Below, one piece after another: positions 18,339-61,098 of a stretch of DNA of 64,000 nt. Origin of the DNA: Candidatus Jorgensenbacteria bacterium GW2011_GWA1_48_11 (GTDB lineage: Bacteria; Patescibacteriota; Minisyncoccia; UBA6257; GWB1-50-10); the NCBI GenBank assembly GCA_001003475.1, contig LCPF01000001.1, positions 328,549 through 392,548 of the forward strand, read 5' to 3'. The stretch's first letter is position 1. Each line of letters starts with the position of its first letter. Below the pieces are notes generated by a model, which was not told the origin of the DNA, did no database searches, and saw only the letters and a program-made list of their open reading frames with translations. The translations under genes were made by a program, and so were the position numbers.

Positions 18339-19232
18339 ATGAAAAACAGAATTCAAAAAATTCAAAAGTATTTAGAAGGAAAGAATATTAAGAACAAGCT
18401 TATTTCTAAAAATAAGTCAGATCATCTTCTTATTAATGGTGATTGTGATGAGGTAATGATGTTATTGCCCGAAAAGAGTGTCGATCTAATCATTACTGAT
18501 CCGCCGTATAATCAATCTCTAGATTACGGATTACGTTTTAATGATAATAAAAGCTGGGCGGAATATTATGCATGGTTGGAGCAAAAGCTTTCACAGATTC
18601 CAAGATTACTAAGTGATAAAGGAAGTTTCTATTTAATAAGTTATCCAGAAATTAACGCGCGAATATTACCATTTCTTGAGGATAGACTAAAGCTAAATTT
18701 CAGACGTTGGATTACTTGGCATTATCCAACAAATATTGGCCATTCATATAAAAATTTTACAAGAAGCCAACGCTCGATACTCTTTTTTACTAAGAGGGGA
18801 AAAGGATACGTTTTTAACCAAAAAGAAATCATACAACCATATAAGAATCCTACTGCTCCCGTAATTAAAGAACGCTACCGTCTGGGTTATAAAGGAAGAG
18901 CCGCTTACGATGCACTAGGTTTAGAGGATTTGATAGAGATAGATTTGCTTAAGAATAACTCTCCAGAAAGATTTCGAAATATTGATTCTAAATTTGTTTC
19001 TTTAGATAACAATAAGGAAAAGCTTAAAAAAATTGATCACCCATGCCAATTGCCGCTTAGTTTATTGGAGCTATTTATAAAAGTTAGTAGTAAATCAAAT
19101 TCTGTGATATTTGATCCTTTTGCTGGCACGTTCACCACGTCAGCCGCCGCAGCGAATTTGGGCAGAAATTCTATAGGAGTGGATTTAAATCCTAAATTTA
19201 TTAAATTTGGTGTTAAGAGATTAAAAAAATAA
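18339..19232 (+). CDS. DNA methyltransferase, beta class (N4-C or N6-A; DPPY before FxGxG)
   Basis: Motif IV (DPPYN) precedes motif I (FDPFAGTFTTSAAA). Confidence 0.8.
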   Translation: MKNRIQKIQKYLEGKNIKNKLISKNKSDHLLINGDCDEVMMLLPEKSVDLIITDPPYNQSLDYGLRFNDNKSWAEYYAWLEQKLSQIPRLLSDKGSFYLISYPEINARILPFLEDRLKLNFRRWITWHYPTNIGHSYKNFTRSQRSILFFTKRGKGYVFNQKEIIQPYKNPTAPVIKERYRLGYKGRAAYDALGLEDLIEIDLLKNNSPERFRNIDSKFVSLDNNKEKLKKIDHPCQLPLSLLELFIKVSSKSNSVIFDPFAGTFTTSAAAANLGRNSIGVDLNPKFIKFGVKRLKK

Positions 19233-19234
19233 AA

Positions 19235-20983: not shown

Positions 20984-21014
20984 TATTATTATTGTTTCTA
21001 GCTTTAGTTATATC

Positions 21015-24984: not shown

Positions 24985-25050
24985 AGTGACGGCCCGAATG
25001 GTAGAATTGAAAATTTTGACCGCTATAAAAATAAGGATTAGAATTTATTT

Positions 25051-25725
25051 ATGAAAAAAAGCGTAAAGTTTTTTCTCGATACCGCTAACTTAGACGATAT
25101 TAAGGGGGGTATAACTCTGGGAGTTTTTTCGGGCGTAACAACAAATCCAGTTATTGTTTCTAAGGAAACACACAACTACAAGGATTTTCTCATCAAAATA
25201 TTGGATACGATTCCCAAAAATTGGGAGTTAAGCGCAGAAGTGAAGGCGGGGAACACAGCAGATATGGTAAAACAGGCGAAGTTGTTGGCTGTTATGGATA
25301 AGCGGATTCGCGTGAAACTGCCGACAAACGTGGAAGGTCTTAAGGCTGCAGAGCAGTTGATCGAAAAGATTCCTTTGAACATGACTGTTGTAAAGCTTCC
25401 TGCGCAAGCCATGATGTGTCAGGCGTTGGCCGCGCGACATAAACCGAAAGACATCTTACTTTCCGTATTTTGCGGCCGAATCAATCAAGCCGGCTATGAC
25501 TGGAGGCCTATCCTTGAGAAAATATCACAGGTAGATTGGCCCGGAAAAATTTTGGCCGCATCTATAAAAACTCCGTTCGATATTGCGGAAGCCGTGGCTC
25601 ATGGCGCAGAAATCGTTACGGCACCGCTTGATGTTTATCAAACATCCCTCAGTTCGAAATTAGTTCAGGAGGACGTTGATTTGTTCAATAAGCCGTTTGA
25701 CGGCAAGGATTTTGAGGTCCGGTAA
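25051..25725 (+). CDS. Transaldolase / fructose-6-phosphate aldolase family protein (short TalC/FSA type)
   Basis: N-terminal FLDTANLDDIK...GVTTNP motif. 224 aa. Confidence 0.8.
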   Translation: MKKSVKFFLDTANLDDIKGGITLGVFSGVTTNPVIVSKETHNYKDFLIKILDTIPKNWELSAEVKAGNTADMVKQAKLLAVMDKRIRVKLPTNVEGLKAAEQLIEKIPLNMTVVKLPAQAMMCQALAARHKPKDILLSVFCGRINQAGYDWRPILEKISQVDWPGKILAASIKTPFDIAEAVAHGAEIVTAPLDVYQTSLSSKLVQEDVDLFNKPFDGKDFEVR

Positions 25726-25726
25726 A

Positions 25727-26605
25727 ATGAAATGTCTTCTGTGTAAAAACACGGAATTTGACCAAATTGCTCATTCACTCCGAGGAGGAGAGTTAATAAA
25801 TGTAAAAAAGTGTCTAAAATGCGGACACGTGCAGTTATATCCATTGCCAACCGAAAAAGAAATACAGGAGCGATACGAGACCGCGGCCGTATCAATACCG
25901 CAATCGGAAAAGAAAAGATTGAGCGATAAAGAGGTATTTTCTCTTCGAGATACTATTTATAATGCCGATCTTGTTTCTTCTCTCATCCCCAAAGGAGCAA
26001 CTGTTCTTGATTATGGATGCGGCTACGGCTTCTTTCTTAAAGAAATGAAAAAAAGGAAATATAATATAAGCGGAGTGGATATTTCTACAATCCGTACTGC
26101 CGTAGCAAAAAAAAATGCATCGAAGATAGAAATTAAACAAAATCTTACGGATCTTTCGCAAAAATCTTTTGACTGTATTACTGCTTTTCATGTTCTTGAA
26201 CATGTTCGTGATCCAATTGGTTTACTTATAACGCTGAAATCATATTTAAAACCGGGAGGCAGATTGATCATTGAGGTGCCAAACCTCGACGACCATTTGA
26301 TATCTCTCGTCCCGGAATATAAAGATTTTTATTGGAAAATAGAACATTTGTCGTACTTTAACGCGAAAACGCTAGCTTATTGTGTTCGTAAGGCCGGTCT
26401 TAAATTGCAAAAGACTTTTTACTACCAACGTTGGGATATTTTCAATTTGATGAATTGGGTATTACGGCGAGCGCCTCAACCGCCAGCCGAAGTCGTTTAT
26501 TTTGCCGAACGGCCGAAATTAATCAGCTGGTTGCAAAATCATTACAAGGAATATTTATCCAAGAATAAAACGGCGGACGCGGTTTTCATGGTGATAAAAT
26601 CGTGA
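25727..26605 (+). CDS. Class I SAM-dependent methyltransferase with N-terminal zinc ribbon
   Basis: CLLCKN...CLKCGH zinc ribbon followed by methyltransferase motif I (VLDYGCGYGFF). The start is 1 nt after the upstream stop. Confidence 0.75.
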   Translation: MKCLLCKNTEFDQIAHSLRGGELINVKKCLKCGHVQLYPLPTEKEIQERYETAAVSIPQSEKKRLSDKEVFSLRDTIYNADLVSSLIPKGATVLDYGCGYGFFLKEMKKRKYNISGVDISTIRTAVAKKNASKIEIKQNLTDLSQKSFDCITAFHVLEHVRDPIGLLITLKSYLKPGGRLIIEVPNLDDHLISLVPEYKDFYWKIEHLSYFNAKTLAYCVRKAGLKLQKTFYYQRWDIFNLMNWVLRRAPQPPAEVVYFAERPKLISWLQNHYKEYLSKNKTADAVFMVIKS

Positions 26606-27213
26606 CTAACGTAAAAAAAGACTTTTATGTAGTTGGGCTATACGGAATAAATTCTGCCGGTAAGACCGCTATTTCTCGGTTGCTTATGAAAGAAATCCCC
26701 ATATGCGAAATACAATCTACCGACAATTTAATGAAATTGTTTAAGTCTTATCACAAGGATCCAAAATACGTCGGCCTTTCGAGTCGTACGGCGTGGAAGC
26801 TTATCGGCGAAGAGAACGAAACTAACATTATTGAAGGGTTTAAAATATACAGGAGTATTGTTTCGTCCGATATAGATGTTTTAATAAACCGGGTGCCGAC
26901 AGAAAATTTTACAATGATATTTGAGGGAATCCATTTTTCGCCAAAGAATAGAGAAGCGGATAAAGCCGTAAAGATAATTCCCATATTACTTACCCTTCAG
27001 GACAAAGAGGCGCATAAGAGAAGAATTATTGAAAAATGCAATGGAAGAAACGAACTAGAACAGAGGTTGCTTGACGGCATGAAAACAGCAAGATTAATTC
27101 AGGAATTCCTTATAAGAGAAGCAAAAGAAAACGGGACGATTGTTGTGGATACAAGTTTTGATATCGTAAAACAAACTCTTAATAAAATTCTTAAAATTAT
27201 CAGTGATTACTGA
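26602..27213 (+). CDS. P-loop NTPase / predicted kinase
   Basis: Walker A motif GLYGINSAGKTAIS. Confidence 0.55.
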   Translation: MTNVKKDFYVVGLYGINSAGKTAISRLLMKEIPICEIQSTDNLMKLFKSYHKDPKYVGLSSRTAWKLIGEENETNIIEGFKIYRSIVSSDIDVLINRVPTENFTMIFEGIHFSPKNREADKAVKIIPILLTLQDKEAHKRRIIEKCNGRNELEQRLLDGMKTARLIQEFLIREAKENGTIVVDTSFDIVKQTLNKILKIISDY

Positions 27214-28162
27214 TCATACGCATATACTGACAAAGTGGGGAGATATAGTAACCGCAAGGGGTTTTAACGACGGTGATTTAATTTATGTAGTGCCTCTTTA
27301 TTTCCTTTCAGATAAAGGTAGCCGCACTTATAGCGGGGAAAAATACGAAAAATACGTCGATGAATTTGCAGAACGTTATCGGCATTTTCACCCGGAATTG
27401 GTTCGGTCTACGCCTTACGGCCAGCGAGTAGCGATACGGGAGGACCAGATTACGCGCGCCTTCGATCCTTTTGCAAACCCTCGGCTTATTTATGATTCTT
27501 TTGACAAAAAAATTTATCGGCGGGTTGTCGATATTCTTACTAAATTTGTCCCCAGAGAGAGCATTGGATTTATCGGGTCGAGCCTGGTCGGTTTCCAGAC
27601 GGCTGGTTCCGATTTGGATATAGTAATTCGCGGTCTAGAGAATTACCGGACCTTACGCGGCCAGTTCAAGGATTTTCTGAATGCTTTAGGGGCATGCGCC
27701 ACGATAACCAGGGAACAGTTTTATAAATCTGTTGTAAAATACGAACGGTTATTCAATGGAGTCAATAACGATTTCGCGACAATGATTAAAAACCGTTGGC
27801 CCACAATTCATATGCCAGGTGAATTGTTTTGTAAAATCCGTTTCACGTTGAATCCGGCCAATGACGTTATTTTCTCCGCACCTTCCAACCTTTCTTTAAG
27901 GGAAGGATCGGTCAATGGGAAAGTTATAGAGGACGAGGGCGTCGCTTTCATGCCCAGACATTTTCGATTACGTCTGAACGAAGGTGCAGAATACGAGACC
28001 ATTACTTACCATTGGGATTATTCTTACTGCGTAATGGTAGGCGACGAAGTGACGGTTAGAGGAGCAATTGATGAGAGCGAGAAAATTATAGTCGTTAGTG
28101 ATCGGAAGAATCACGGCATAACTTTTAAAAAACAGAATAATATTGCCTGTGCTATTGTATAA
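27203..28162 (+). CDS. Nucleotidyltransferase (Pol-beta superfamily) domain protein
   Basis: GS...D.D motif (IGSSLVGFQTAGSDLDIVI). Confidence 0.55.
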   Translation: MITDHTHILTKWGDIVTARGFNDGDLIYVVPLYFLSDKGSRTYSGEKYEKYVDEFAERYRHFHPELVRSTPYGQRVAIREDQITRAFDPFANPRLIYDSFDKKIYRRVVDILTKFVPRESIGFIGSSLVGFQTAGSDLDIVIRGLENYRTLRGQFKDFLNALGACATITREQFYKSVVKYERLFNGVNNDFATMIKNRWPTIHMPGELFCKIRFTLNPANDVIFSAPSNLSLREGSVNGKVIEDEGVAFMPRHFRLRLNEGAEYETITYHWDYSYCVMVGDEVTVRGAIDESEKIIVVSDRKNHGITFKKQNNIACAIV

Positions 28163-28166
28163 ATTT

Positions 28167-29138
28167 ATGGAAACACAAACCCTTTATAGAACTTTCGATA
28201 CGAGATTTGAAAAGGAAGTACTGCCTTACATTGAGAAAAAGCTTCCACGGGATTATTTTTCAGAACCGATTTATTACTATATTGATAATTTTCAAATGCG
28301 TCGTTTCCGCGCAGTATTGCCTCTTATTATCGCCGAACATACCGGCGTCAATTATGAAGACGCTTTGGCGCTTGGAGCGGCATCCGAGCTCATCTTTACC
28401 ATCGCCTTAGTTCAGGACGACTTTATAGACGGCGATAAGATGAGGGGTGATATTTTAGCAGCTCACGAGAAATACGGCGCAGGGCGAGTCTTAGCATCGG
28501 CTGATTATGCGTATGGTGCGGTCTACGATATGATTTCGGATTTATCTCGTGGCGATGTGCCTGCGGCCGCTTTTAAAACAATCCTGGAAGGATTTCAGAA
28601 ATCCCATAGAGATCTTTATCAGAGTTTTATTATGGAATTAGGCTTTCAATTTCCCACCATTGAGATTACCAAAGAATATGTGAGGAAGGTGCATTTAGCG
28701 AAAACGGCACAGGGAATTAACGCTCTTTATTGTATCGGGGTACTAGCAGAACAAAAATCGGCCGGAAAGTTATCTCGAATATTTAAACGCTACGCGGAAC
28801 TGTTGGGAAGCGCCGGACAGATTAAAAATGATGTTTATGATTTCACGCGATATGCCGAATCAAGGGGATTATCCGATTTTCGCAATGGATATATCACATA
28901 CCCTCTCGCATATCTTGCAGAAGTAGTCGATCGAGTTCATTTAAGCGATATTCTTAAGAAGAAAGACGTGGATGGTTTTATGGATTTAATGAAGGAATAT
29001 AATGTAGTTGAAATATTGCGTAAAGAGATAAATGATCTTGCCGATCAAGCGATTTCAATTATCAAAGAAATTCCTTTGCCGATGCCGCTTAAGGAGATCT
29101 TAGAGTGTTGGGCGGAAGGCAATAGATTTACTCGTTAA
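28167..29138 (+). CDS. Isoprenoid (polyprenyl/terpene) synthase-fold protein
   Basis: First Asp-rich motif DDFIDGDKMRG (DDxxD...RRG-like) and a second motif NDVYD. Confidence 0.55.
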   Translation: METQTLYRTFDTRFEKEVLPYIEKKLPRDYFSEPIYYYIDNFQMRRFRAVLPLIIAEHTGVNYEDALALGAASELIFTIALVQDDFIDGDKMRGDILAAHEKYGAGRVLASADYAYGAVYDMISDLSRGDVPAAAFKTILEGFQKSHRDLYQSFIMELGFQFPTIEITKEYVRKVHLAKTAQGINALYCIGVLAEQKSAGKLSRIFKRYAELLGSAGQIKNDVYDFTRYAESRGLSDFRNGYITYPLAYLAEVVDRVHLSDILKKKDVDGFMDLMKEYNVVEILRKEINDLADQAISIIKEIPLPMPLKEILECWAEGNRFTR

Positions 29139-30301
29139 TTTTCTTGATTAAAATAATGTTCATTCCTTAAAAGATTTTTATTAAAAATATCTAAGACTTG
29201 TCTTGCTCGGTTACGCCATTCATAACTTTTAACGTCAATTATTGCTTGTTTCGCTAGAGAACTAGCCAATTTTTTATCTTGAATAAGTTTTGCAATACCA
29301 TCAGCCAGTATTTTTGGATTATTCGGTTCAACCAAGAGAGCATTAGCATCATTTAATACTTCACGTATTGATGGCAAATTGCTAGCTATTATTGGTGTGT
29401 TGCTGGCCATATACTCAAAAAGTTTTAACGGAGAAGTCAGTTTTTCCGAGATTTGATTCCCCTTTTTATTAGGTAGTATCAGAATATCGGCTGCTTTAAG
29501 ATAGAGAGGGATTGAGGCGTGTGGCTGACGACCAACACATAAGACGTTTTCGGGCAAGAATTCTCCGGTAGATTTTTCCGCGTCCGACGAATTTCCACCC
29601 ACGACTACGAAAATAAAATCATTGGTGAAAAATTTCGCGGCTTTGATAAAAACATCTTCTCCTTTCCAATCCTTGTAAAATCCTACACTACCGCTATATA
29701 GGATAATTTTCTTGTTTAAGGGCAGATTTGTGATTTTTCTGGCTTCCAAATGATTTGTATTTAGGTCAAATTTTTTCAAATCGACCCCATCTGGAAGAAG
29801 AGAGATTTTTTGCGGTGAGATATAATACTGATTCTTAATTATTTCAACCATCGCTTTTGTAATGGTTACGATAAGATCGACTCGAGGAAAAACATATCGA
29901 TCAAGCGGAAAAGGTACGTGAGCTTCCATAACAATTCTAATGTTGCTGGAAAAAAGTTTTTTCCAAATCAAGGCGTAAGTCGCAAGACGCGTGTCTTTAA
30001 AATACAGAATGGTTTGGGAAACGGTTGATCGATTTGAGATCAATAAAAAAGGCATCCATAAAAAATAATAGTAGATGGAGAAAAAGCGTTTAAAGAAAGG
30101 GGGGTTTACGATATGGTGCGGTATTTTTGAAAGATTTTCATTTTCTTCTCCAGAGCAGACAAGAATAAATCCGTTACCGAGTAGTTGGCTGAAGGCTTGA
30201 GCCATCGAGAGTACTTGGATTTGGTTGGCAAAGCACGTCCTAAAGTTGAGAGGTGTAATATAAATAAGTTTTTTATTCTCCAGCATATCAATTATTTCCA
30301 T
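29135..30301 (-). CDS. Glycosyltransferase family 1 (GT-B, GT4-like)
   Basis: C-terminal EX7E-type motif region (EYMASNTPIIASNLPSIREVL). 388 aa. Confidence 0.8.
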   Translation of the reverse strand: MEIIDMLENKKLIYITPLNFRTCFANQIQVLSMAQAFSQLLGNGFILVCSGEENENLSKIPHHIVNPPFFKRFFSIYYYFLWMPFLLISNRSTVSQTILYFKDTRLATYALIWKKLFSSNIRIVMEAHVPFPLDRYVFPRVDLIVTITKAMVEIIKNQYYISPQKISLLPDGVDLKKFDLNTNHLEARKITNLPLNKKIILYSGSVGFYKDWKGEDVFIKAAKFFTNDFIFVVVGGNSSDAEKSTGEFLPENVLCVGRQPHASIPLYLKAADILILPNKKGNQISEKLTSPLKLFEYMASNTPIIASNLPSIREVLNDANALLVEPNNPKILADGIAKLIQDKKLASSLAKQAIIDVKSYEWRNRARQVLDIFNKNLLRNEHYFNQEN

Positions 30302-30422
30302 TTAGTAATTTATTTAATTTCATAAGATATGTTGTTTTTGGAATTCTAACCATCGATTTATAGATACTATACAATTCTCAAAGTACTATTCCAATTGGGG
30401 AATTCCGGGCGGGTTTGCTAGA

Positions 30423-30890
30423 ATGAATCTTATGTGGGAATTTCTGAAGCAGACTCATCTTGGATTAAAGGCGAAGAAAAGAAAGGAGCAGTTTCTTATT
30501 TTTTTGAGTTTTCTCGTTACTTTCATTGTCGCGCGGTTCGTCGCCGATCTGCAGGATTCCGGCTATCTTTCCTTTCTTTTCGTGGGCGGCGTCCACATCC
30601 ATCATTTGGTTTTCGGGATTTTCTTCCTGATCATGAGCGGCTACCTGGCCATTTCTTACAGCCACAAGGAAGATTTCAAATCATTTACGGCCGTGCTCTT
30701 CGGCATCGGCGCCGCTCTGACCGTGGACGAGTTCACGCTCTGGCTTTTCTTGGACAACAATTATTGGGATCGGGTTGGTCGCTACAATGTCGACGCCATG
30801 ATAGTACTCGCCGGCGTTTTTTTCATCATCTACCTTTTGGGCGAGGCCCACGACTGGAAGCTTTCGAAAAAGATAAAAAGCGGAGTTTGA
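30423..30890 (+). CDS. Hypothetical membrane protein (155 aa)
   Basis: Four TM helices. No motif. Confidence 0.5.
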   Translation: MNLMWEFLKQTHLGLKAKKRKEQFLIFLSFLVTFIVARFVADLQDSGYLSFLFVGGVHIHHLVFGIFFLIMSGYLAISYSHKEDFKSFTAVLFGIGAALTVDEFTLWLFLDNNYWDRVGRYNVDAMIVLAGVFFIIYLLGEAHDWKLSKKIKSGV

Positions 30891-30918
30891 GGAACTTTGG
30901 CAATGTTAGAATTGATTA

Positions 30919-32010
30919 ATGACTGAAAAGCAGTGGCGTTCGACGATTCTGGCTCTTGTGGCGGTGTTCCTCGTTGTGTTTTTTTTCATTCCCGGCGAAG
31001 GGAAGCGGCCAGCCCAAACCGAGGAGACGGTTTCTTTTATTCCTCCTCTTTCGATCCCGATGGCTTCGGTCGACGACGTCCGGGCGATCTATCTTACGGC
31101 TCAGACGGCGGCCAGGCCCGAACGGGTTCAGGCCCTGATCGATCTCGTGAAGACCACGGAATTGAATGCGGTCGTCATTAACGTCAAGGACAGTGACGGC
31201 ATTTATCTCGACGGGAACATGAGGCGGGTGGTCGAGAAACTTTTGGCGAACGGCATTTACCCGATCGCCCGGATGGTGGTTTTCCAAGACAACTTTTTGG
31301 CGAGAACCCGGCCGGAACTGGCTTTAAAGAACCGGGACAATTCCCTTTGGCGGGGCAATAACGGCGCTTTATGGATCGACCCCGCGAGCATCGCGGTCTG
31401 GGATTACAATGCCAATATCGCCGAAGAAGCGCTCGCCATCGGTTTCAAGGAAATAAACCTTGACTACATCCGTTTTCCCTCGGACGGCGACGTTTCGGAG
31501 ATAGTTTATCCTTTTTACAACGCCTCAAGCTCGAAGAGCGCGGTCATGCGGGATTTTTTCGATTATTTTTCTTCGCGTCTCAAAGCCGACCGGCCGCAAG
31601 CCGTTCTTTCGGCGGATCTTTTCGCTTTCAGTTTCATTCAGGATGACGGTTTGGGCGTAGGCCAAAGAGTGCCCGTGGCCGCCGAATATTTCGACGTTCT
31701 TTCGCCGATGATCTACCCTTCGCACTACACGCCCGGCAATTTCGGCTTCGAGAACCCGGCCGAGCACCCTTACGAGGTCGTCTCGAGCACCTTGGCTTCC
31801 GGCCAAAAGTTTTTTCCGGATTCTTTGAAGAAGGCGATCGTCCGACCCTGGCTCCAAAGTTTTAATTTGGGGGCCGAATATACGCCGGCAATGGTGCGGC
31901 AGGAAATTCAAGCTTTGCTCGATCGGGGTTTCCGCAACAGCTGGATGCTGTGGAATCCGAATAATGTCTATAATCCGGACAATTTTTTGAAACGCCGGGA
32001 GTATAATTAA
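30919..32010 (+). CDS. Putative glycoside hydrolase-like TIM-barrel protein (GHL/DUF4015-type), membrane-anchored
   Basis: An N-terminal TM helix. The central region resembles GHL-family putative glycosidases. Confidence 0.5.
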   Translation: MTEKQWRSTILALVAVFLVVFFFIPGEGKRPAQTEETVSFIPPLSIPMASVDDVRAIYLTAQTAARPERVQALIDLVKTTELNAVVINVKDSDGIYLDGNMRRVVEKLLANGIYPIARMVVFQDNFLARTRPELALKNRDNSLWRGNNGALWIDPASIAVWDYNANIAEEALAIGFKEINLDYIRFPSDGDVSEIVYPFYNASSSKSAVMRDFFDYFSSRLKADRPQAVLSADLFAFSFIQDDGLGVGQRVPVAAEYFDVLSPMIYPSHYTPGNFGFENPAEHPYEVVSSTLASGQKFFPDSLKKAIVRPWLQSFNLGAEYTPAMVRQEIQALLDRGFRNSWMLWNPNNVYNPDNFLKRREYN

Positions 32011-50654: not shown

Positions 50655-50660
50655 CATGAA

Positions 50661-50767
50661 TCCCGTTAGAAGCGGCCCCAATATCCAAAAAATACTTGCA
50701 AGATGATTCATCATAATTTAAACGGTCCAAACCAAATGCGGAATTTTGTTCCGTTTCTAACGGGATG
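50661..50767 (+). promoter_or_regulatory. Conserved ~110-nt intergenic element, copy 2, ending at the ATG of the downstream gene
   Basis: The 5' arm TCCCGTTAGAAGC pairs with the 3' arm GTTTCTAACGGGA. The internal block AAACGGTCCAAACCAAATGCGGAATTTTGTTCC is shared with copy 1. Confidence 0.5.
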
Positions 50768-52973: not shown

Positions 52974-54980
52974 TTGCAGATGGATAAATTTAAACTGATT
53001 TCAAAAAATAAGCCCGCTGGGGATCAACCCAGGGCAATAAAAGAGCTGGTTAACGGCCTCTCGAAAGGTTTGAATCGTCAAACGCTTTTGGGCGTGACCG
53101 GTTCGGGCAAGACCTTTACTGTGGCGAACGTGATTGCCGAAACCAATCGGCCGACATTGGTTATTGCTCATAACAAAACCCTGGCGGCCCAGCTTACGAA
53201 CGAATTCCGAGAGCTTTTTCCCCAAAATTCCGTGAATTATTTCGTTTCTTACTATGATTATTACCAGCCCGAGGCTTACATTCCCACGACCGACACTTAT
53301 ATCGGCAAGGAAGCGATGATCAACGATGAGATTGACAAGCTGCGGCATGCGGCGACAACGGCCCTGCTCACGCGGCGGGACGTAATCGTGGTGGCCTCGG
53401 TTTCCTGCATTTACGGCTTGGGCGCGCCCGAGGTTTACGCCGAAAACATCTTTCATTTCAAGATTGGTGACAGGATTAAACGGGCGGAATTCGCCAAAAA
53501 ACTGATTGAACTGCAGTTCAGCCGGACCAACGCCGATCTCACGCGCGGCACCTTCCGTCTGCGGGGCGATAACTGGGAGATCATGCCGCCGGACAGGGAA
53601 TTGATTTACAATTTCGAGCTCAAGGACGATACGATTCGGAAGATCTACGAGATCGATCCGGTTTTGGGCTTCGTTCCGGAAAAGACGAAAACCTTGCCTA
53701 AGCTTTACATTTCGCCGGCCAAACATTTCATTACTCTCACGCCGGAGCGGGAACGGGCTATCAAGGCTATTAGGGAGGAATTGAAAGAGCGGCTGAAATA
53801 TTTCGAGAAGAACGGCAAATTATTGGAAGCCGAAAGGCTGGAGCGCCGGACAAAATTCGACCTGGCTATGATCAAGGAGGTCGGCTACTGCCACGGTATC
53901 GAGAATTATTCCCGCCCCTTGTCGGGCCGGGCGCCCGGCGCGCCGCCGGACACGCTTCTGGATTATTTCCCCGATGGTTTTTTGACGGTGATCGACGAAT
54001 CACACGTTTCAGTGCCCCAGATCCGGGGAATGTATGAGGGGGACGCTTCGCGCAAGAAGACGCTTATCGAATACGGTTTCCGGCTGCCTTCGGCCGCCGA
54101 TAACCGGCCTTTGCGCTTCGCTGAATTCGAGAAAAGAATCGGCCAGACCGTTTTCACCTCGGCCACGCCCGGCCCTTATGAAAGAAAAACGAGCGCGAAA
54201 GTGGTGGAGCAGATCATTCGGCCGACCGGCCTCATTGACCCCGAAATCGTGATGAAGCCGGTGAAGGGCCAGGTGCCGGATTTGATCGCGAGAATAAAAG
54301 AAAGAGCCGACAAAAAGGAAAGGGTGCTCGTGACGACCCTGACCAAGCGGATGGCCGAGGATTTATCGGCTTATCTCGAGGATTTGAAAATCAAGGTTAC
54401 TTATTTGCACAGCGACGTGAAGACTTTGGATCGGATCAGGATTTTGACCAGTTTGCGGAAAGGGGATTTTGACGTTTTGGTCGGCGTGAATTTGTTGCGG
54501 GAAGGCTTGGACTTGCCCGAGGTGTCCCTGGTGGCGATTCTGGATGCGGATAAGGAGGGGTTTTTGCGAAGCGAGACTTCCTTGATCCAAACGATCGGCC
54601 GGGCGGCCCGGAATGTTCGCGGCCAGGTTCTGATCTACGCCGACCATATCACCGGCTCGATCGAGCGGGCAGTCGGTGAGACCGAACGCCGGCGAAAAAT
54701 CCAGCTTGCCTACAATAAAAGGCACCGGATCACGCCCAAGACCATTATTCGGGCGATTACCGATATTTTGCCGACCGAGGAGATTTTGAAATTGGAAATG
54801 AAACCGATTCCGAAATCCAAGAAGGCTCTAGAGCAAACAATAAAAGACAAAGAAAGGGAGATGAGAAATGCTGCAAAACGTTTGGATTTTGAGTTAGCTA
54901 CTATATTGAGAGATGAAATTAGGGCTTTGTCTAAAAATTTGAGTCCAGCTGGACGAAAAATTTTTAGTAACAAAATCTAA
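52974..54980 (+). CDS. uvrB: Excinuclease ABC subunit B. The probable true start is 52980 (MDKFKLIS). The last ~37 codons are AT-rich relative to the gene body.
   Basis: Helicase motifs ([10 protein letters not shown]), beta-hairpin and a C-terminal UVR domain. Confidence 0.9.
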
Positions 54981-55058
54981 CCCCGTCACTAAAAGAGCAT
55001 TATTAAAAATCGCTCCGAGCGGAAGCTCGCAGAGCACAATGCTCTTTTTGGTGCGGGG
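54981..55058. repeat. GC-clamped palindromic element, copy 1
   Basis: Arms CCCCGTCACTAAAAGAGCATT ... AATGCTCTTTTTGGTGCGGGG. They are exact reverse complements of the arms of the copy at 56990-57066. Confidence 0.6.
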
Positions 55059-55060
55059 TG

Positions 55061-55144
55061 CGGGAAGCGGCTAAGCGGCTGGATTTCGAACTGGCGGCGA
55101 TTTTGCGGGATGAGCTTAAGGAATTAAGCAGGAAAATAAAATAA
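55061..55144 (+). pseudogene. Displaced duplicate of the uvrB 3' end (27 codons plus stop) with its own terminator
   Basis: Translates to [27 protein letters not shown]. It matches the current UvrB C-terminus ([22 protein letters not shown]) but uses GC-richer codons. The terminator at 55148-55180 follows. Confidence 0.6.
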
Positions 55145-56950: not shown

Positions 56951-56992
56951 TATGGCACAGGATAAAATAATCATTAAAGGCGCCCGCGAGCA
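56951..56992 (+). pseudogene. Displaced duplicate of the uvrA 5' end (ATG plus 13 codons)
   Basis: Translates to [14 protein letters not shown], against the current uvrA start [13 protein letters not shown]. It is GC-rich in codon use and abuts element copy 2. Confidence 0.55.
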
Positions 56993-57066
56993 CCCCGCAC
57001 CAAAAAGAGCATTGCTTGCTTCGGCTACCGCCGGCAAGCCTTTGAAAATGCTCTTTTAGTGACGGG
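56990..57066. repeat. GC-clamped palindromic element, copy 2 (inverted relative to copy 1)
   Basis: Arms CACCCCGCACCAAAAAGAGCATT ... AATGCTCTTTTAGTGACGGGG. Confidence 0.6.
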
Positions 57067-57084
57067 GCAGGCAATCTTAAACAT

Positions 57085-59601
57085 ATGCAAGATAAAATCA
57101 TTATAAAAGGAGCAAGAGAACATAACCTGAAAAATATAAATCTCGAGATCCCGCGCGATAAGATGGTGATTTTTACGGGTCTTTCCGGTTCGGGCAAGTC
57201 TTCTTTGGCCTTCGACACGATTTTTGCCGAAGGCCAGCGCCGCTATATCGAGTCGCTCTCGGCTTATGCCCGGCAGTTTTTGGGCCGGCTCGACAAGCCG
57301 GACGTGGATGAGATTGACGGCTTATCGCCCGCGATCTCGATTGACCAAAAAAGCCATTCTTCGAACCCGCGCTCGACCGTGGCGACGATCACGGAAATCT
57401 ACGATTATCTGCGGGTGCTTTTTGCCCGGGCCGGCAAGCCGCATTGCCCGATTTGCGGTCTCGAGATTAAAAAAATGACGAATGAGGAGATAGTGGACGT
57501 CGCCACCGAGGTGTACAAAGAAAATGTTTCCCGGAAAAACATGGTGGTTTTGGCGCCGGTCGTGCGCGGCCGCAAAGGCGAGTATTACCAGATGCTTTAC
57601 GATTTTTTGGGCGCCGGGTTTTCCGAAGTGCGGGTGGACGGCATTTTCATGTCGTTGCGCGACCGAATCGAGCTCAGCCGTTACAAGATCCACAGCATTG
57701 ATTTGGTCGTGGATCGGTTGCCGGCCGGACTTGATTTCGGGACCAAGGAAAACCGTTTGCGTTTGGCCGAAGCCGTGGAGACGGGGTTGAAATATGGCCA
57801 CGACGTCGTGACCCTGATTACCGACAAAGAAACCTCCCTTTCGGCCAAATTCACCTGCCCCCACGACGGTTTTTCTTTTCCGGAGATCGAGCCGCGGCTT
57901 TTCTCTTTCAATAGTCCCTACGGGGCGTGCCCGGCCTGCAACGGCTTGGGTACGGAAACCGTCTGGTCGGAAAAGATCTGCCCGGTTTGTTTGGGAAAAA
58001 GATTGCGGCCTGAAGCCCTGAACGTCCTCATTAATAAGAAGAACATCGCGGCGACCACGGCTTTTTCCATCGCCGAGGCTTATGATTTTTTCAACAAGCT
58101 GGAATTGACCGGCAAAAACACTTTTAAGGAGATTTCGGAAGTGCCTTTGCGCGAGATTAAGAACCGTTTGAAATTCATGATCGACGTCGGTTTGGATTAT
58201 TTGACCCTGGCCCGCAAGGCCGGCACCCTTTCGGGCGGCGAAGCCCAGCGTATCAGGCTGGCTTCCCAGATCGGTTCGCGCTTGACCGGCACCCTATATA
58301 TCCTGGACGAACCGACGATCGGTCTCCACCAGCGGGATAACGCCAAATTGATCCGGACGCTTCATGATTTGCGCGATTTGGGCAATACCGTGATTGTCGT
58401 GGAGCATGACGAGGAGACCATCTGTTCCGGCGATTATCTGGTGGACATCGGCCCGGCGGCCGGGGTCCACGGCGGAAAAATCGTGGCGTACGGCAAAATG
58501 CCGGAGATTATAAAAGACAAAAACCAAAATTCGCTTACCCTGGAATACCTCCGTGGCAAGCGTTTTATTGAAGTGCCGTCACGTAGGCGGAAAGTGACGA
58601 AAGACCACGATTTTTTGAAGATCAAGGGCGCCGCCGAAAATAATCTTCAGAACATCGACGTCAACGTTCCTTTGCGGCGGTTCACGGCCGTGACCGGCGT
58701 TTCCGGCTCGGGCAAAAGCACTTTGGTTTACGACGTGCTCTATAAGACTTTGGCCAATAAATTCAACGGCGCGGCTTACAAGGCCGGTGTTCATAAAACC
58801 ATGACCGGTCTCGAATACGTCAATCGGGTGGTGAATATTGACCAGTCTCCGATCGGCCGCACGCCCCGTTCCAATCCAGCGACCTATGTCGGCGCCTGGA
58901 CCTTCATTCGGGATCTGTTTGCTTCGACTGAAGACGCCCGCGTCCGCGGCTATAAGCCCGGCCGGTTCAGTTTCAACGTCAAGGGCGGCCGCTGCGAAAA
59001 CTGCGAAGGCCACGGCTTGATTGCGATCGAGATGCATTTCCTGCCCACGGTTTACGTGGTTTGCGACATTTGCAAAGGCAAGCGTTTCGACCGGGAAACC
59101 TTGGCCGTGGAATACAAAGGCAAAAATATTTATGACGTGCTTCAAATGACGGTTGAGGAAGCGGTTAGTTTTTTCGAGGACATTCCCTGGCTGCATGACC
59201 GGCTGCGGGTTTTGAACGAAGTGGGCTTGGGCTATCTGGAACTCGGCCAGTCGGCCACGACCCTCTCCGGCGGCGAAGCCCAGCGTATTAAGCTTACGGC
59301 CGAGCTCGGCAAGCGCGACACCCGAAAAACGATCTATCTTTTGGATGAACCGACGACGGGCCTTCATTTCGCCGACGTGGACAATTTATTGAACGTTTTG
59401 AACCGGCTCGTGGAGCGGGGGAATACAATTGTCGTGATCGAGCATAATTTGGACGTGATCAAAACCGCGGATTGGGTGATCGATCTGGGGCCCGAGGGCG
59501 GGGACAAGGGTGGCCGGATCGTGGCCCAAGGTACGCCCGAGGACATTTCCAAAAAAAACGGCAGCTTTACGGCCGAATATTTGAGGAAAGTTCTAAAATA
59601 A
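57085..59601 (+). CDS. uvrA: Excinuclease ABC subunit A (838 aa; the insertion domain between the zinc-finger pairs appears to be absent)
   Basis: Two ABC modules ([24 protein letters not shown]), zinc fingers and the UvrB-binding region are present. The protein is about 100 aa shorter than typical UvrA. Confidence 0.9.
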
Positions 59602-59738
59602 TCCCTCACCCTTCAAAGATAAGAAGCTTAATCGATAAACCGATTTATGAACTCATTAGAAAACAATATTAGTCTAAAAAGGTCTTTATTGATCAAAGAT
59701 TACTTCCTTAGAAGTGTAATCTTTGAAGGGTGAGGGAT
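59601..59738. repeat. 138-bp MITE-like element with perfect 20-bp terminal inverted repeats, lying exactly between the uvrA stop and the uvrC ATG
   Basis: ATCCCTCACCCTTCAAAGAT at 59601-59620 is the reverse complement of 59719-59738. The right terminus supplies GAAGGGTGAGGG and then the ATG of uvrC. Confidence 0.55.
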
Positions 59739-61098
59739 GGAAAAGCTTTATAAAAATTTGCCTGAGACGCCCGGCGTTTATCTGATGAAAGACGCCGCCG
59801 GCCGGATTTTATACGTCGGCAAGGCCGTCAATCTGCGGCGGCGGGTGGCGAGTTATTTCACGTTTACCCGCCGAAGCGAAGGCGAAGGAGGGCGGTCCCC
59901 CGCCGTCGCTTACGCTTTGGCGGGCAAGCATGATTTGCGCTTGGAAAAATTGGTCCGGGAGATAAAAAAAATAGATCTTAAGAAAACCGATACGGCTTTG
60001 GAAGCATTGATTCTGGAGTCGGCGCTCATAAAAAAACACCAGCCGCCCTGGAATATCCGGGAAAAGGACGATACGAGTTTCCTCTATGTCGGCATCACTG
60101 ATGATTATTTCCCGAGAGTAATTTTGGTACGAGGTAAGGTTATAAAAGGGAAGGCGCTTGCCCCGTCACTAACCGAGCGCTACCAAAATCGCTTCGCGCG
60201 GAAGCGCGAAGAGCGCGGTGCTCGGTTTAGTGCGGGGTTCGGGCCGTATACTTCAGCTTCGGATATCCGGGAGGCCCTAAGGATCATCCGCCGGATTTTT
60301 CCCTTTAGTACTCATTCGGCCGAAGCCATCGGTAAATTTAAAAGACCTTGCTTTGACTATCAGTTGGGTTTGTGCCCGGGTACTTGTATCGGCATCATTG
60401 ACCGTGGGGATTATCTCAAGAACATCAAAAACATAATTTTGCTTTTCCAGGGTAAAAAAAAGGAAATTTTGAAAAATCTTCAGTCGGCCATGAAATCGGC
60501 TAGCAAAAAGCTGGAATTCGAAAAAGCCGGGAAAATCCGCCGTCAGATCTTCGCCTTGCAGCATATTCAGGATACTGCGCTCATCACGGATGGGCGAATT
60601 CAAAATTTAAAATTTAAAATTCAAAATTCCTTCCGGATTGAAGGGTATGACATATCGAATATTTCGGGGCTCTCGGCCGTGGGGAGCATGGTGGTTTTTT
60701 CCGCCCAAGGCGGACCAGCCTCGGGCAGGATATTAAAGCCGGACAAAAACCAATATCGGAAATTCAAAATCGGCACGGTTTTTGGCTCTAATGACACGGC
60801 TATGCTTGCGGAAATGCTGGGTCGCCGGTTGAACCACCGCGAATGGCCCTTGCCGGATCTGTTCCTGATCGACGGCGGCAAGCCCCAAGTGAACGCCGTT
60901 CGCTCGGTTTTGGACGAATTTGGATTGCAACTGCCCGTCGTGGGCATTGCGAAGGGCGCAAAGAGGAAGAAAAACGAATTTATCGGTCCGGTGCCGAAAG
61001 AAATCGGTGAAAAAACCCTGATTCAGGTTCGGGATGAAGCTCATCGTTTCGCCGTGAGTTATCACAAAAAATTAAGAAGTTATAGCTCTCTGTTATAA
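59737..61098 (+). CDS. uvrC: Excinuclease ABC subunit C, short form (453 aa: GIY-YIG, UVR and RNase H-like endonuclease domains, no C-terminal (HhH)2), with an in-frame palindromic-element insertion
   Basis: GIY-YIG motif (GVYLMKD...YVGKA), UVR motif (FEKAGKIRRQIFALQ), endonuclease motifs (IEGYDISN, LIDGGK). Confidence 0.8.
   Translation: MEKLYKNLPETPGVYLMKDAAGRILYVGKAVNLRRRVASYFTFTRRSEGEGGRSPAVAYALAGKHDLRLEKLVREIKKIDLKKTDTALEALILESALIKKHQPPWNIREKDDTSFLYVGITDDYFPRVILVRGKVIKGKALAPSLTERYQNRFARKREERGARFSAGFGPYTSASDIREALRIIRRIFPFSTHSAEAIGKFKRPCFDYQLGLCPGTCIGIIDRGDYLKNIKNIILLFQGKKKEILKNLQSAMKSASKKLEFEKAGKIRRQIFALQHIQDTALITDGRIQNLKFKIQNSFRIEGYDISNISGLSAVGSMVVFSAQGGPASGRILKPDKNQYRKFKIGTVFGSNDTAMLAEMLGRRLNHREWPLPDLFLIDGGKPQVNAVRSVLDEFGLQLPVVGIAKGAKRKKNEFIGPVPKEIGEKTLIQVRDEAHRFAVSYHKKLRSYSSLL
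60161..60237. repeat. GC-clamped palindromic element, copy 3, inserted in-frame within uvrC
   Basis: CCCCGTCACTAACCGAGCG...CGCTCGGTTTAGTGCGGGG. It is translated as APSLTERYQNRFARKREERGARFSAGF with no stop. Confidence 0.55.

What the first reader, a model, noticed from the sequence alone, without database searches (positions are those of the whole stretch)
59601..59738. 138-bp element with perfect 20-bp terminal inverted repeats wedged exactly between the uvrA stop and the uvrC start
ATCCCTCACCCTTCAAAGAT ... ATCTTTGAAGGGTGAGGGAT. The left TIR begins with the last A of the uvrA TAA. The right TIR ends with the AT of the uvrC ATG and contributes the purine-rich GAAGGGTGAGGG ribosome-binding sequence. 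The element is either a MITE that has been domesticated as the uvrC translation-initiation region, or a long-range stem that couples or occludes uvrC translation.
Basis: seen in the sequence. Interest (0 to 1): 0.55.

Follow-up and report, generated by a model that had tools for sequence, protein, structure and literature searches.

The report
Mobile hairpin wedged between two genes
The 138-base palindromic insert between the DNA-repair genes uvrA and uvrC is real, and it is one copy of an apparently undescribed family of tiny mobile elements in ultra-small groundwater bacteria that almost always sit with one end fused to a gene's ATG and usually with the other end on the previous gene's stop codon.

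Summary
The 20-nt perfect inverted repeats lie at 59601-59620 and 59719-59738. They share the last A of the uvrA TAA and the AT of the uvrC ATG. Three independent assemblies are identical here.

The element is not a one-off. An 18-mer of the arm hits at least 111 metagenome loci and about 45 loci in Patescibacteria (CPR) genomes. Most hits are paired copies 120-175 nt apart, with up to 12 complete copies in the DNA sampled from one genome. In 59 of 61 distinct copies one arm is fused to an ATG exactly as here. The other side reads TAAT. In 55 of 89 copies a real upstream ORF stops within 2 nt of the arm.

Downstream genes are housekeeping genes, many of them ribosomal proteins. Close relatives show presence/absence at the same operon junctions. 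Near-identical copies sit at different junctions of one genome. Relatives of this organism lack the element at uvrA-uvrC.

It is therefore a MITE-like mobile element with an unusual, oriented placement fused to the start codon. No transposase partner was found, and only 1 of 88 copies has a target duplication.

In mRNA the arms should form a helix of -35 kcal/mol that buries the uvrC start. My best guess is that ribosomes open it. RNase III processing is a serious rival.

The parts
57085..59601 (+). uvrA (838 aa). Its TAA stop (59599-59601) shares its last A with the left arm.
   Evidence: ORF list; Pfam UvrA_inter and ABC_tran; C-terminus ends as in relative L188.
59601..59738 (+). The element: a 138-nt member of the ATCCCTCACCC...GGGTGAGGGAT family, oriented with its 3' hairpin and right arm towards uvrC.
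   Evidence: Family copies. Interior is 27.6% GC in a 48.9% GC host sequence. Closest interiors (about 70% identity) are L094, L096, L097 and L059, which sit in front of other genes (S5 and GreA confirmed by Pfam).
59601..59620 (+). Left arm ATCCCTCACCCTTCAAAGAT.
   Evidence: Family consensus on its outer side is T/A/A/T (52, 45, 55 and 57 of 59).
59621..59718 (+). AT-rich interior. Its sequence varies between copies, and it is mostly unstructured on the 5' side.
   Evidence: 5' 45 nt has median z = 0.31; 3' 45 nt has median z = -2.9.
59647..59733 (+). Loop uORF of 28 codons (MNSLENNISLKRSLLIKDYFLRSVIFEG*). It ends at the TGA inside the right arm, 3 nt before the uvrC ATG. Its functional status is inferred.
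   Evidence: 18 of 56 non-redundant copies have an ATG-uORF of at least 20 codons ending at one of the two in-arm TGAs, against a mean of 3.0 (maximum 8) in 300 interior shuffles. The uORF AUG has an unpaired probability of 0.53.
59701..59716 (+). P3, a small hairpin 2 nt before the right arm. This feature is conserved in structure and position across the family but varies in sequence.
   Evidence: Window fold. In the family the hairpin ends 0-6 nt from the right arm in 53 of 55 copies, with 49 distinct stem sequences and 36 of 55 at z < -2.
59693..59726 (+). Alternative local pairing, TCAAAGATTAC (59693-59703) with GTAATCTTTGA (59716-59726). An internal partial copy of the left arm's inner half competes for the right arm.
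   Evidence: I5. The same arrangement (CTTCAAnnAT just 5' of P3) was seen by eye in the family alignment and folds; it was not quantified.
59719..59738 (+). Right arm ATCTTTGAAGGGTGAGGGAT. It contains TGA in two frames (59724-26 and 59731-33), the purine tract 59725-59736, and the AT of the uvrC ATG.
   Evidence: The arm is followed by G in 59 of 59 oriented copies.
59737..61098 (+). uvrC (453 aa). Its ATG shares AT with the right arm.

Best explanation
SHOWN. The 138-nt sequence is one copy of a multi-copy, non-autonomous, MITE-like mobile element family of Patescibacteria (CPR). Its 20-bp terminal inverted repeats are nearly invariant. In one fixed orientation it occupies the space immediately upstream of a start codon, with its terminal AT forming part of the ATG. 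In most copies it starts on the last base of the preceding gene's stop codon (TA|AT...AT|G). Here it has landed between uvrA and uvrC in a lineage whose relatives lack it.

INFERRED. In the uvrA-uvrC mRNA the two arms pair into a 20-bp helix of about -35 kcal/mol. This loops out the 98-nt interior, brings UAA and AUG back side by side, and buries the uvrC start. uvrC is then translated only when the helix is opened. The most likely opener is a ribosome terminating at the uvrA UAA, whose footprint covers the outer half of the left arm. A second possible opener is a ribosome translating the 28-codon loop uORF, which stops 3 nt before the AUG. On this view the insertion preserves termination-reinitiation coupling despite adding 136 nt, and that is why such a parasite is tolerated inside operons of very compact, Shine-Dalgarno-poor genomes. 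How copies are placed so exactly is not explained.
For: Family and mobility.
Paired copies occur only in Patescibacteria MAGs. Single-arm hits in other phyla look like chance matches.
- 72 paired copies were found (60 distinct sequences), 65-173 nt long.
- 11-12 complete copies lie in the 71-88 kb sampled from each of two MAGs.
- In the S10/spc ribosomal-protein operon of close relatives, each junction has either a 4-22-nt spacer (in one case a different 69-nt palindrome) or the element. Copies at different junctions of these close relatives (three within the MAG of L129) are near-identical by eye, including the interior. The same junction (L2-S19) carries different subfamilies in two genomes.
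- Relatives have 17, 303 or 411 nt, or a patatin gene, between uvrA and uvrC. In the closest relative uvrC follows a divergent gene. None has the element.
- One copy (L175) has a perfect 9-bp flanking duplication.
- The interior is always more AT-rich than the host: median 20% against 37%, and 28% against 49% here.

Placement and orientation. These features were not part of the search pattern.
- ATG follows the arm in 59 of 61 copies. The left flank reads T, A, A, T in 52, 45, 55 and 57 of 59.
- 63 of 89 copies have TAA or TGA ending on the arm's first A.
- In 55 of 89 copies an ORF of at least 60 codons stops within 2 nt of the conserved core.
- Downstream ORFs are real, with a median of 185 aa. 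Pfam confirms L2, S19, L22, L29, L18, L21, L20, S15, S11, S2, S4, S5, S7, L6, L17, ClpP, SSB and GreA.
- The P3 hairpin is always on the ATG side.
- The arm that was not searched for is exact in 101 of 120 copies and has at most 1 mismatch in 119 of 120. Interiors diverge much more: even the nearest interiors are only about 70% identical to the window copy.

RNA level.
- Fold z = -6.2; helix -35.3 kcal/mol.
- Unpaired probability is 0.009 for positions -18 to -1 and 0.12 for the AUG. The AUG rises to about 0.8 when the stop codon plus 7-13 nt are blocked.
- uORFs ending in the arm are enriched: 18 of 56 against 3.0 expected.

Background.
- Termination-reinitiation coupling collapses once the spacer reaches about 20 nt (PMC10666635).
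- Structures directly after stop codons control reinitiation (PMC7518266).
- Long-range pairing that a translating ribosome opens is the classical rpmI-rplT (L35-L20) coupling mechanism (my own knowledge).
Against: - No transcript, structure-probing or translation data exist for any copy. Every RNA-level step is prediction.
- 20 of 89 copies have no co-directional ORF within 60 nt upstream. Some follow tRNA genes, or a promoter that lies upstream of the whole element, as at nusA.
- 7 of 55 analysed copies have neither an abutting ORF nor a uORF. uORF presence is not associated with lack of an upstream ORF (p = 0.39). Ribosome-driven opening therefore cannot be universal.
- With a ribosome on the stop codon the purine tract stays about 80% paired.
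- Stable structure right after a stop codon has been reported to insulate translation rather than couple it (PMC7518266).
- For the MITE label: 87 of 88 copies have no target-site duplication. At filled junctions the short native spacer is replaced rather than split. No longer element or transposase bounded by these arms was found in the fetched DNA.
- The copy number in the source genome itself could not be measured. There is one copy in 64 kb, and the source genome was absent from the species-representative scan.
Confidence: 0.45

Rival explanations
1. RNase III-type intervening sequence. The same mobile element is present, but the 20-bp perfect helix is a double-strand-specific endonuclease site. 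Cleavage would separate the uvrA and uvrC messages, remove the loop, and leave uvrC with a very short leader (about 10 nt, GGGUGAGGG-AUG). This would suit an organism that mostly starts translation close to the mRNA 5' end.
For: - The helix is a constant 20 perfect base pairs across the family. That is about two helical turns, the minimal RNase III substrate (my own knowledge).
- P3 ends 0-6 nt from the helix and could stack on it.
- This model works for copies with no upstream ORF, such as those in front of nusA, rpsO and rpsB or after tRNA genes.
- Many genes in the window carry TATAAT or TAGAAT 6-10 nt before the ATG, which implies leaderless or short-leader mRNAs.
- Precedents exist. Correia elements are bound and cleaved by RNase III (PMC2649163). 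RNase III removes rRNA intervening sequences and unmasks the adhE ribosome-binding site (my own knowledge).
Against: - It does not explain why the stop codon abuts the helix in most copies (55 of 89).
- It does not explain why uORFs ending in the arm are enriched.
- After a mid-helix cut, the GC-rich outer 9-10 bp (CCCUCACCC/GGGUGAGGG) could stay annealed and still mask the AUG.
- There are no end-mapping data, and the presence of an rnc gene in the source genome was not checked.
Confidence: 0.3
2. Selfish element with no RNA-level role. The exact placement would reflect only a target preference (about TAAT|G, a -1 stop/start overlap) plus purifying selection in genomes that have almost no other neutral sites. 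uvrC expression would simply tolerate the insert.
For: - The left-flank and right-flank consensus TAAT...G fits insertion into TAATG or TGATG with AT shared or duplicated.
- Removing 59602-59737 restores ...AAAATAATGGAAAAG.
- A second arm family, ATCCCGTTAGAA, shares the outer ATCCC/GGGAT and is also usually followed by G (the window copy at 50660-50766 is fused to an ATG). This is as expected if the termini define the cleavage or target chemistry.
- One copy has a 9-bp target duplication.
Against: - A helix of -35 kcal/mol over the start codons of essential, highly expressed genes cannot be neutral unless something opens it.
- The strict orientation, the position-conserved but sequence-variable P3, and the uORF enrichment all point to constraints beyond insertion.
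- Empty sister junctions read TAA-AAAT-ATG, TAA-AAGTTT-ATG and TAA-TTTTTT-ATG, not TAATG.
- -1 overlaps are rare in the host loci: 1, against 8 overlaps of -4, in one MAG.
Confidence: 0.2
3. Domesticated ribosome-binding site. The element would be kept because GAAGGGTGAGGG serves as the uvrC Shine-Dalgarno sequence.
For: The purine tract lies at -12 to -1. AAGG and GGGUGA are partly complementary to the canonical 16S 3' tail CCUCCUU/UCACCU (sequence inspection plus my own knowledge). Every copy delivers this tract to its downstream gene.
Against: - Most ORFs in the window lack an SD-like motif.
- In three host MAGs only 12 of 94, 4 of 60 and 3 of 44 genes without the element have an SD-like tetramer.
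- The tract is fully paired in the free RNA and stays about 80% paired even when the left arm is blocked.
- The 16S 3' ends of the hosts could not be checked; no rRNA was found in the fetched DNA.
Confidence: 0.12
4. Vertically inherited, gene-specific regulatory RNA of uvrC (for example a damage-responsive leader) rather than a mobile element. Other minor options are an attC-like cassette recombination site, a chance palindrome, or an assembly artefact.
For: The element lies inside a conserved uvrB-uvrA-uvrC cluster and folds far better than chance.
Against: - It is absent from the uvrA-uvrC junction of every relative examined.
- The same element precedes dozens of unrelated genes.
- No Rfam family matches.
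- The arms lack the attC core sites RYYYAAC/GTTRRRY, and the flanking genes are core housekeeping genes rather than cassettes.
- Three assemblies are identical.
- A chance origin is excluded.
Confidence: 0.03

Closest known systems
Correia repeat-enclosed elements (CREE/NEMIS) of Neisseria
   Same: They are about 100-155-bp non-autonomous elements with roughly 26-bp terminal inverted repeats and many copies. They often sit next to or between co-transcribed genes, and their RNA hairpin is an RNase III substrate that changes expression of neighbours (PMC2649163, PMC2229807).
   Different: CREE duplicate a TA target, can create promoters and carry an IHF site (PMC2649163 and my own knowledge). 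They are not fused to start codons in a fixed register or orientation. Here the arm sequence is unrelated, there is no TA duplication, and the hosts are Patescibacteria.
ERIC/IRU elements of enterobacteria and Yersinia
   Same: They are roughly 127-bp imperfect palindromes located in transcribed intergenic regions inside operons, where they act at the mRNA level (my own knowledge; reviewed in PMC3184786).
   Different: In ERIC the whole element is conserved in sequence. In this family mainly the arms are conserved. ERIC has no systematic stop/start abutment and occurs in a different phylum.
Rickettsia palindromic elements (RPE)
   Same: They are small palindromic selfish elements that survive in very compact genomes by inserting where they do least harm (my own knowledge).
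   Different: RPEs insert in frame inside coding sequences. The target element sits exactly between coding sequences. A different, GC-rich hairpin family in this same window does behave like an RPE (60161-60238 inside uvrC).
Long-range mRNA pairing that couples translation in ribosomal-protein operons (rpmI-rplT, L35-L20), and ribosome termination structures
   Same: A downstream start is sequestered by pairing with upstream sequence and is freed by a ribosome translating or terminating upstream. Structure placed directly after a stop codon tunes reinitiation (PMC7518266; L35-L20 from my own knowledge).
   Different: Those are resident, gene-specific structures. Here the device is portable, repeated at dozens of junctions, and brought in by a mobile element.
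Integron attC sites / Vibrio cholerae repeats
   Same: They are imperfect palindromes of 57-141 nt that sit between successive ORFs, with conserved ends and a variable centre (my own knowledge).
   Different: This family lacks the RYYYAAC/GTTRRRY cores. Its flanking genes are essential housekeeping genes inside conserved operons, not cassettes, and no array structure is present.

Membership tests
Prokaryotic MITE | Small (under about 500 bp) and with no transposase gene. | tested here: met
   The element is 138 nt. Family copies are 65-173 nt. The only ORF is a 28-codon uORF whose peptide is not conserved.
Prokaryotic MITE | Terminal inverted repeats. | tested here: met
   20/20 complementary here. 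The arm that was not searched for is exact in 101 of 120 copies.
Prokaryotic MITE | Multiple dispersed copies within genomes. | tested here: met
   11-12 complete copies lie in the 71-88 kb sampled from each of two MAGs, with several copies per contig. For the source genome itself only 64 kb could be read, and it holds one copy.
Prokaryotic MITE | Insertion polymorphism at orthologous sites. | tested here: met
   Junctions of the S10/spc operon are filled or empty among close relatives. The uvrA-uvrC junction is empty in relatives.
Prokaryotic MITE | Target-site duplication flanking the inverted repeats. | tested here: inconclusive
   87 of 88 copies have none in the AT..AT register. One copy (L175) has a perfect 9-bp duplication. 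The shared AT could itself be a 2-bp duplication.
Prokaryotic MITE | A related autonomous IS with the same inverted repeats. | tested here: inconclusive
   No 0.4-4 kb element bounded by these or other ATCCC-type arms was found in about 1 Mb of fetched loci. Whole genomes could not be scanned.
Correia/CREE | Characteristic roughly 26-bp Correia repeat with a TA duplication, in Neisseria. | tested here: not met
   No TA duplication is present. The hosts are Patescibacteria. That the arm sequence is unrelated rests on my own knowledge of the Correia repeat.
Integron attC | Inverse-core and core sites RYYYAAC...GTTRRRY at the ends, within cassette arrays. | tested here: not met
   The arms read ATCCCTCACCC.../...GGGTGAGGGAT. 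The neighbours are uvrA/uvrC and ribosomal-protein genes.
Curated structured RNA families (Rfam 15) | A covariance-model match. | tested here: not met
   Nothing reaches gathering score. At E <= 10 there are only spurious plant-miRNA and sRNA hits far below threshold.
Intrinsic terminator | GC-rich hairpin followed by a U tract. | tested here: not met
   No terminator-like site lies in 59601-59738. The right arm is followed by GGAAAAG.
RNase III processing site / intervening sequence | About 20 bp or more of uninterrupted double-stranded RNA, and cleavage in vivo. | not testable with these tools
   The helix requirement is met (20 bp, -35.3 kcal/mol). Cleavage cannot be tested here.

The most novel reading that the evidence does not exclude
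The ATCCC...GGGAT|G elements (at least two arm families) may be a class of mobile DNA specialised to live inside operons of ultra-compact, SD-poor genomes. On this reading they insert at, or are copied to, the stop/start junction in one orientation. They carry their own translation-reinitiation bridge: a helix that re-juxtaposes UAA and AUG, a hairpin next to the start, and in many copies a uORF that stops inside the arm. They may spread without a conventional transposase, given that there is almost never a target duplication and the native spacer is replaced. This would be a portable intercistronic coupler, with no described counterpart among bacterial MITEs.
Probability: 0.3. Interest if true: 0.8.

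Novelty: new variant of a known kind. Interest (0 to 1): 0.62.

Why it matters
CPR/Patescibacteria genomes are among the most compact known, and their mobile DNA and translation control are poorly understood. This family shows how a parasite can colonise even ribosomal-protein operons: it occupies the one site between a stop and a start codon and folds so that the two codons stay adjacent.

If the helix does mediate coupling or processing, it is a natural, transferable module for linking or insulating cistrons. It would also be a handle on how SD-poor bacteria start translation at internal genes.

Practically, these elements matter for annotation. They create 130-170-nt 'intergenic' gaps inside operons, and the arms fix the true start codon of the downstream gene. 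They could also serve as strain-level markers in groundwater metagenomes.

Tried and rejected
- Chance or artefact. Rejected by the shuffle controls and by three identical assemblies.
- Other copies in the window. None, even with 3 mismatches in the arm or 1 mismatch in AAGGGTGAGGG.
- Promoter or terminator inside the element. No consensus hit. By eye there is no conserved -10 box at a fixed distance from P3 in the family, so the 'portable promoter' idea was dropped.
- Known RNA family. No Rfam match.
- Published description. No paper contains the arm sequence. Searches on CPR with MITE or palindromic repeats found nothing relevant. A 2024 review of prokaryotic MITEs mentions neither Patescibacteria nor start or stop codons.
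- Phage or plasmid origin. No blastn hit was found. Viral contigs give only 10 single 16-mer hits and no paired copy.
- Autonomous partner. No long element with these arms was found.
- Target-site duplications. These were sought in all copies and only one was found.
- uORF as a substitute for a missing upstream ORF. No association was found.
- 16S anti-SD check. No rRNA is present in the fetched DNA.
- Empty site in a very close relative of the window organism. The closest UvrC homologue is only 74% identical in the alignment (65% by BLASTP), and there uvrC follows a divergent gene. The exact pre-insertion sequence therefore remains inferred.
Full report
1. THE OBSERVATION

The window carries ATCCCTCACCCTTCAAAGAT at 59601-59620 and its exact reverse complement at 59719-59738, with 98 nt between them. 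Even with 3 mismatches allowed there is no other match in the 64 kb. The chance expectation is 0.03. It is the only perfect 20-nt separated inverted repeat in the window.

The ORF ending with TAA at 59599-59601 is UvrA, and the ORF starting with ATG at 59737 is UvrC (Pfam). The UvrC N-terminus aligns with 37 homologues from its first residues. UvrA ends (...VLK*) where a Brennerbacteria homologue ends. The element therefore fits exactly between two intact genes and shares one base with the stop codon and two with the start codon.

As RNA, the region folds at -47.8 kcal/mol, against -26.8 +/- 3.4 for shuffles. The source is a Parcubacteria/CPR genome (GCA_001004035.1). The locus is base-for-base identical in ENA, NCBI and JGI assemblies.

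2. IT IS A FAMILY

These come mainly from groundwater sites such as Hainich. It also found 62 loci in species-representative genomes.

Paired copies occur only in Patescibacteria MAGs. These include MAGs labelled Saccharibacteria, several 'Patescibacteria group' bins, and Wolfe-, Lipton- and Brennerbacteria. A Harrisonbacteria copy has one arm with a single mismatch. About a dozen single-arm hits in unrelated phyla look like chance matches.

I found 72 paired copies (60 distinct sequences) of 65-173 nt, mostly 125-175 nt. After merging the two scans there were 89 distinct oriented copies and 56 with clearly different interiors. Two MAGs carry 11-12 complete copies in the 71-88 kb that I could read.

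3. THE UNUSUAL PROPERTY

None of the following was part of the search pattern.

- In 59 of 61 distinct copies one arm is followed by G, so that GGGAT|G forms an ATG. On the other side the flank reads T, A, A, T in 52, 45, 55 and 57 of 59 copies.
- In 63 of 89 copies a TAA (59) or TGA (4) ends on the first A of the arm.
- In 55 of 89 copies a co-directional ORF of at least 60 codons stops within 2 nt of the conserved core.
- The ORFs that start at the fused ATG are genuine, with a median of 185 aa and only 2 shorter than 60 aa.
- Pfam identifies ribosomal proteins L2, S19, L22, L29, L18, L21, L20, S15, S11, S2, S4, S5, S7, L6 and L17, plus ClpP, SSB and GreA. Other downstream proteins look like GroEL, NusA, FtsZ, MreB and SecY from their N-termini. 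I did not run those through Pfam.

The element is also oriented. A stable hairpin (P3) ends 0-6 nt before the ATG-side arm in 53 of 55 copies. It has 49 different stem sequences, and the median z of the 3' 45 nt is -2.9. The other end of the interior is unstructured, with median z = 0.31.

The arms are far more conserved than the interior. The arm I did not search for is exact in 101 of 120 cases and has at most one mismatch in 119. By contrast, the interiors nearest to the window copy are only about 70% identical to it.

4. EVIDENCE FOR MOBILITY

In the S10/spc ribosomal-protein operon of closely related genomes, each junction (L23-L2, L2-S19, S19-L22, L16-L29) has one of two states. Either it has a 4-22-nt spacer (TAA-AAAT-ATG, TAA-AAGTTT-ATG, TAA-TTTTTT-ATG), or in one case a different 69-nt palindrome, or it has TAA-T-CCC...GGG-ATG. 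The pattern differs between genomes. The L6-L18 junction was filled in both genomes I examined.

Copies at different junctions of these close relatives, three of them within the MAG that holds L129, are near-identical by eye, including the interior. The L2-S19 junction carries two different subfamilies in two genomes.

The uvrB-uvrA-uvrC cluster is conserved in relatives of the window organism. Their uvrA-uvrC spacer is 17 nt, 303 nt or 411 nt, or it contains a patatin gene. In the closest homologue uvrC follows a divergent gene. None has the element.

The interior is always more AT-rich than its host: median 20% against 37%, and 28% against 49% here. The subfamily closest to the window copy sits in front of other genes, including S5 and GreA, in hosts of 43-53% GC.

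Deleting 59602-59737 would restore ...AAAATAATGGAAAAG, a -1 stop/start overlap. That arrangement is one of the two commonest for co-directional prokaryotic genes (PMC10666635).

5. WHAT DOES NOT FIT A TEXTBOOK MITE

- 87 of 88 copies have no target-site duplication. One Brennerbacteria copy that is not fused to an ATG (L175) has a perfect 9-bp duplication, AAACTATAA.
- At filled junctions the short native spacer is gone rather than split.
- No 0.4-4 kb element bounded by such arms, and hence no candidate autonomous partner, occurs in the fetched DNA.
- A second arm family, ATCCCGTTAGAA..., shares the outermost ATCCC/GGGAT. It has about a dozen copies in the same loci, and most are followed by G. 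One copy lies in this window at 50660-50766, and its right arm is fused to the ATG at 50765. This suggests a superfamily defined by its termini.

The mechanism of exact placement is unexplained. The options are a TAAT|G target, copying through A-rich microhomology (AAAATAAT / ATGAAAAA), or selection after insertion.

6. LIKELY CONSEQUENCES IN THE mRNA (INFERRED)

The arm duplex is worth -35.3 kcal/mol. In the free transcript the 18 nt before the uvrC AUG have an unpaired probability of 0.009, and the AUG itself 0.12. The helix places UAA and AUG side by side at its base.

When the stop codon and the next 7-13 nt are blocked, which is roughly the reach of a terminating ribosome (my own knowledge), the AUG unpaired probability rises to about 0.8. 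The purine tract re-pairs locally and stays about 20% unpaired.

Termination-reinitiation coupling is lost with spacers of about 20 nt (PMC10666635). Structures directly after stop codons modulate reinitiation (PMC7518266). A 136-nt insertion at an operon junction should therefore be harmful unless something like this helix bridges it.

The right arm contains UGA in two frames. In the window a 28-codon uORF (59647-59733) starts in an accessible part of the loop (unpaired probability 0.53) and stops 3 nt before the uvrC AUG. Such uORFs of at least 20 codons occur in 18 of 56 non-redundant copies, against 3.0 expected (maximum 8) from shuffled interiors. The peptides are not conserved apart from the tail encoded by the arm and P3. 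These copies belong to a few subfamilies, so they are not fully independent.

7. CAVEATS AND RIVALS

The purine tract is a doubtful Shine-Dalgarno sequence. Most ORFs in the window lack an SD-like motif, and many have TATAAT or TAGAAT 6-10 nt before the ATG. In three host MAGs only 7-13% of genes without the element have an SD-like tetramer.

Ribosome-driven opening cannot be universal. 20 of 89 copies have no upstream co-directional ORF within 60 nt. Some follow tRNA genes, and at nusA a promoter lies upstream of the whole element. 7 of 55 analysed copies have neither an abutting ORF nor a uORF, and the two features are not complementary (p = 0.39).

For these copies, and possibly for all, cleavage of the constant 20-bp helix by RNase III is the obvious alternative. 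This is what happens with Correia elements (PMC2649163) and with rRNA intervening sequences.

I rate the identity as a member of a mobile, start-codon-fused inverted-repeat family at about 0.9. I rate formation of an occluding helix in vivo at about 0.7. For the window copy I rate ribosome-driven opening at about 0.4 and RNase III processing at about 0.3.

8. COMPARISON WITH KNOWN SYSTEMS, AND NOVELTY

The element works like the Correia and ERIC class of transcribed palindromic MITEs and like resident long-range coupling structures. It is not a member of any named family. There is no Rfam match. There are no phage or plasmid hits. No paper in the searchable library contains the arm sequence. 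A 2024 review of prokaryotic MITEs mentions neither Patescibacteria nor stop or start codons.

What is new is the combination of four things: a CPR host range, exact fusion to the start codon (usually with stop-codon abutment), strict orientation with a conserved hairpin next to the start, and colonisation of ribosomal-protein operons. I class it as a new variant of a known kind.

Limits of the analysis:
- Copies were found with an exact 18-mer, so diverged members are missed.
- Metagenome copies are partly redundant samples of related populations. I de-duplicated them by sequence and by 8-mer sharing.
- All functional statements are predictions.

Noticed in passing
window 54980-55059, 56993-57067 (reverse orientation), 60161-60238: A second, GC-rich palindromic family of about 80 nt (arms CCCCGTCACTAA..GAGC / GCTC..TT.GTGCGGGG) has three copies in the window. 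The third lies in frame inside uvrC and encodes ...APSLTERYQNRFARKREERGARFSAG.... Its arms carry compensatory AA>CC and TT>GG changes. Similar peptide inserts occur sporadically in UvrC of other Parcubacteria. This resembles Rickettsia palindromic elements.
   Followed up: partly
window 54750-55144 and 56952-57180: Gene ends are duplicated around the GC-rich hairpins. The functional uvrB C-terminus is an AT-rich patch (34-42% GC) ending in TAA followed by hairpin A. Behind it lies an intact older GC-rich C-terminus, [27 protein letters not shown] (55061-55144). An old uvrA start, [14 protein letters not shown] (56952-56993), runs into hairpin B and a stop codon. The real start at 57085 opens an AT-rich patch. 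This looks like patch replacement from an AT-rich donor, with homology at one end and the hairpin at the other.
   Followed up: partly
window 50660-50766: A third palindromic element has arms ATCCCGTTAGAAGCGG / CCGTTTCTAACGGGAT. It shares the outer ATCCC/GGGAT with the target family, and its right arm is again fused to the ATG (50765) of the next ORF. The stop of the preceding DUF5671 gene lies 5 nt before the left arm. About a dozen copies of this arm family occur in the fetched Patescibacteria loci.
   Followed up: partly
window-wide, e.g. upstream of the ATGs at 3920-4660(-), 6996, 15622, 32014, 32608, 39876, 45817, 61106: Most ORFs lack an SD-like motif. Many have TATAAT or TAGAAT only 6-10 nt before the ATG, which suggests that leaderless or very short-leader mRNAs are the norm in this organism.
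   Followed up: no
window 3312-3384 (-) and 3438-3739 (+): A tRNA gene has an Rfam group I intron match (56.7 bits) about 50 nt away on the opposite strand.
   Followed up: no
window about 15000-21000 and 25000-31000: Two AT-rich islands (29-42% GC) lie in a roughly 51% GC background and may be horizontally acquired blocks.
   Followed up: no
window 59870-59930 and the UvrC alignment A2: UvrC carries further sporadic in-frame inserts shared patchily with other Parcubacteria. Examples are RRSEGEGGRSPAVAYALAGK within the GIY-YIG domain and SAQGGPASG... near the RNase H-like domain. The first is encoded by GC-rich, partly palindromic DNA.
   Followed up: no
L175:238-361 (Brennerbacteria JACPKE010000009.1): This is the only copy of the target family with a perfect 9-bp flanking direct repeat (AAACTATAA). 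It is also one of the few copies not fused to a start codon; its ATG lies 26 nt downstream.
   Followed up: yes
L018 (reverse strand) 2553-2621; L140, L159, L132 intergenic spacers: Operon junctions and spacers of the host genomes hold several other unrelated palindromic elements. One is a 69-nt CAATTGAC-type palindrome at the L2-S19 junction. Others are GTATCGATGCGAATATAC... palindromes. Stop/start junctions seem to be general landing sites for hairpin elements in these genomes.
   Followed up: no
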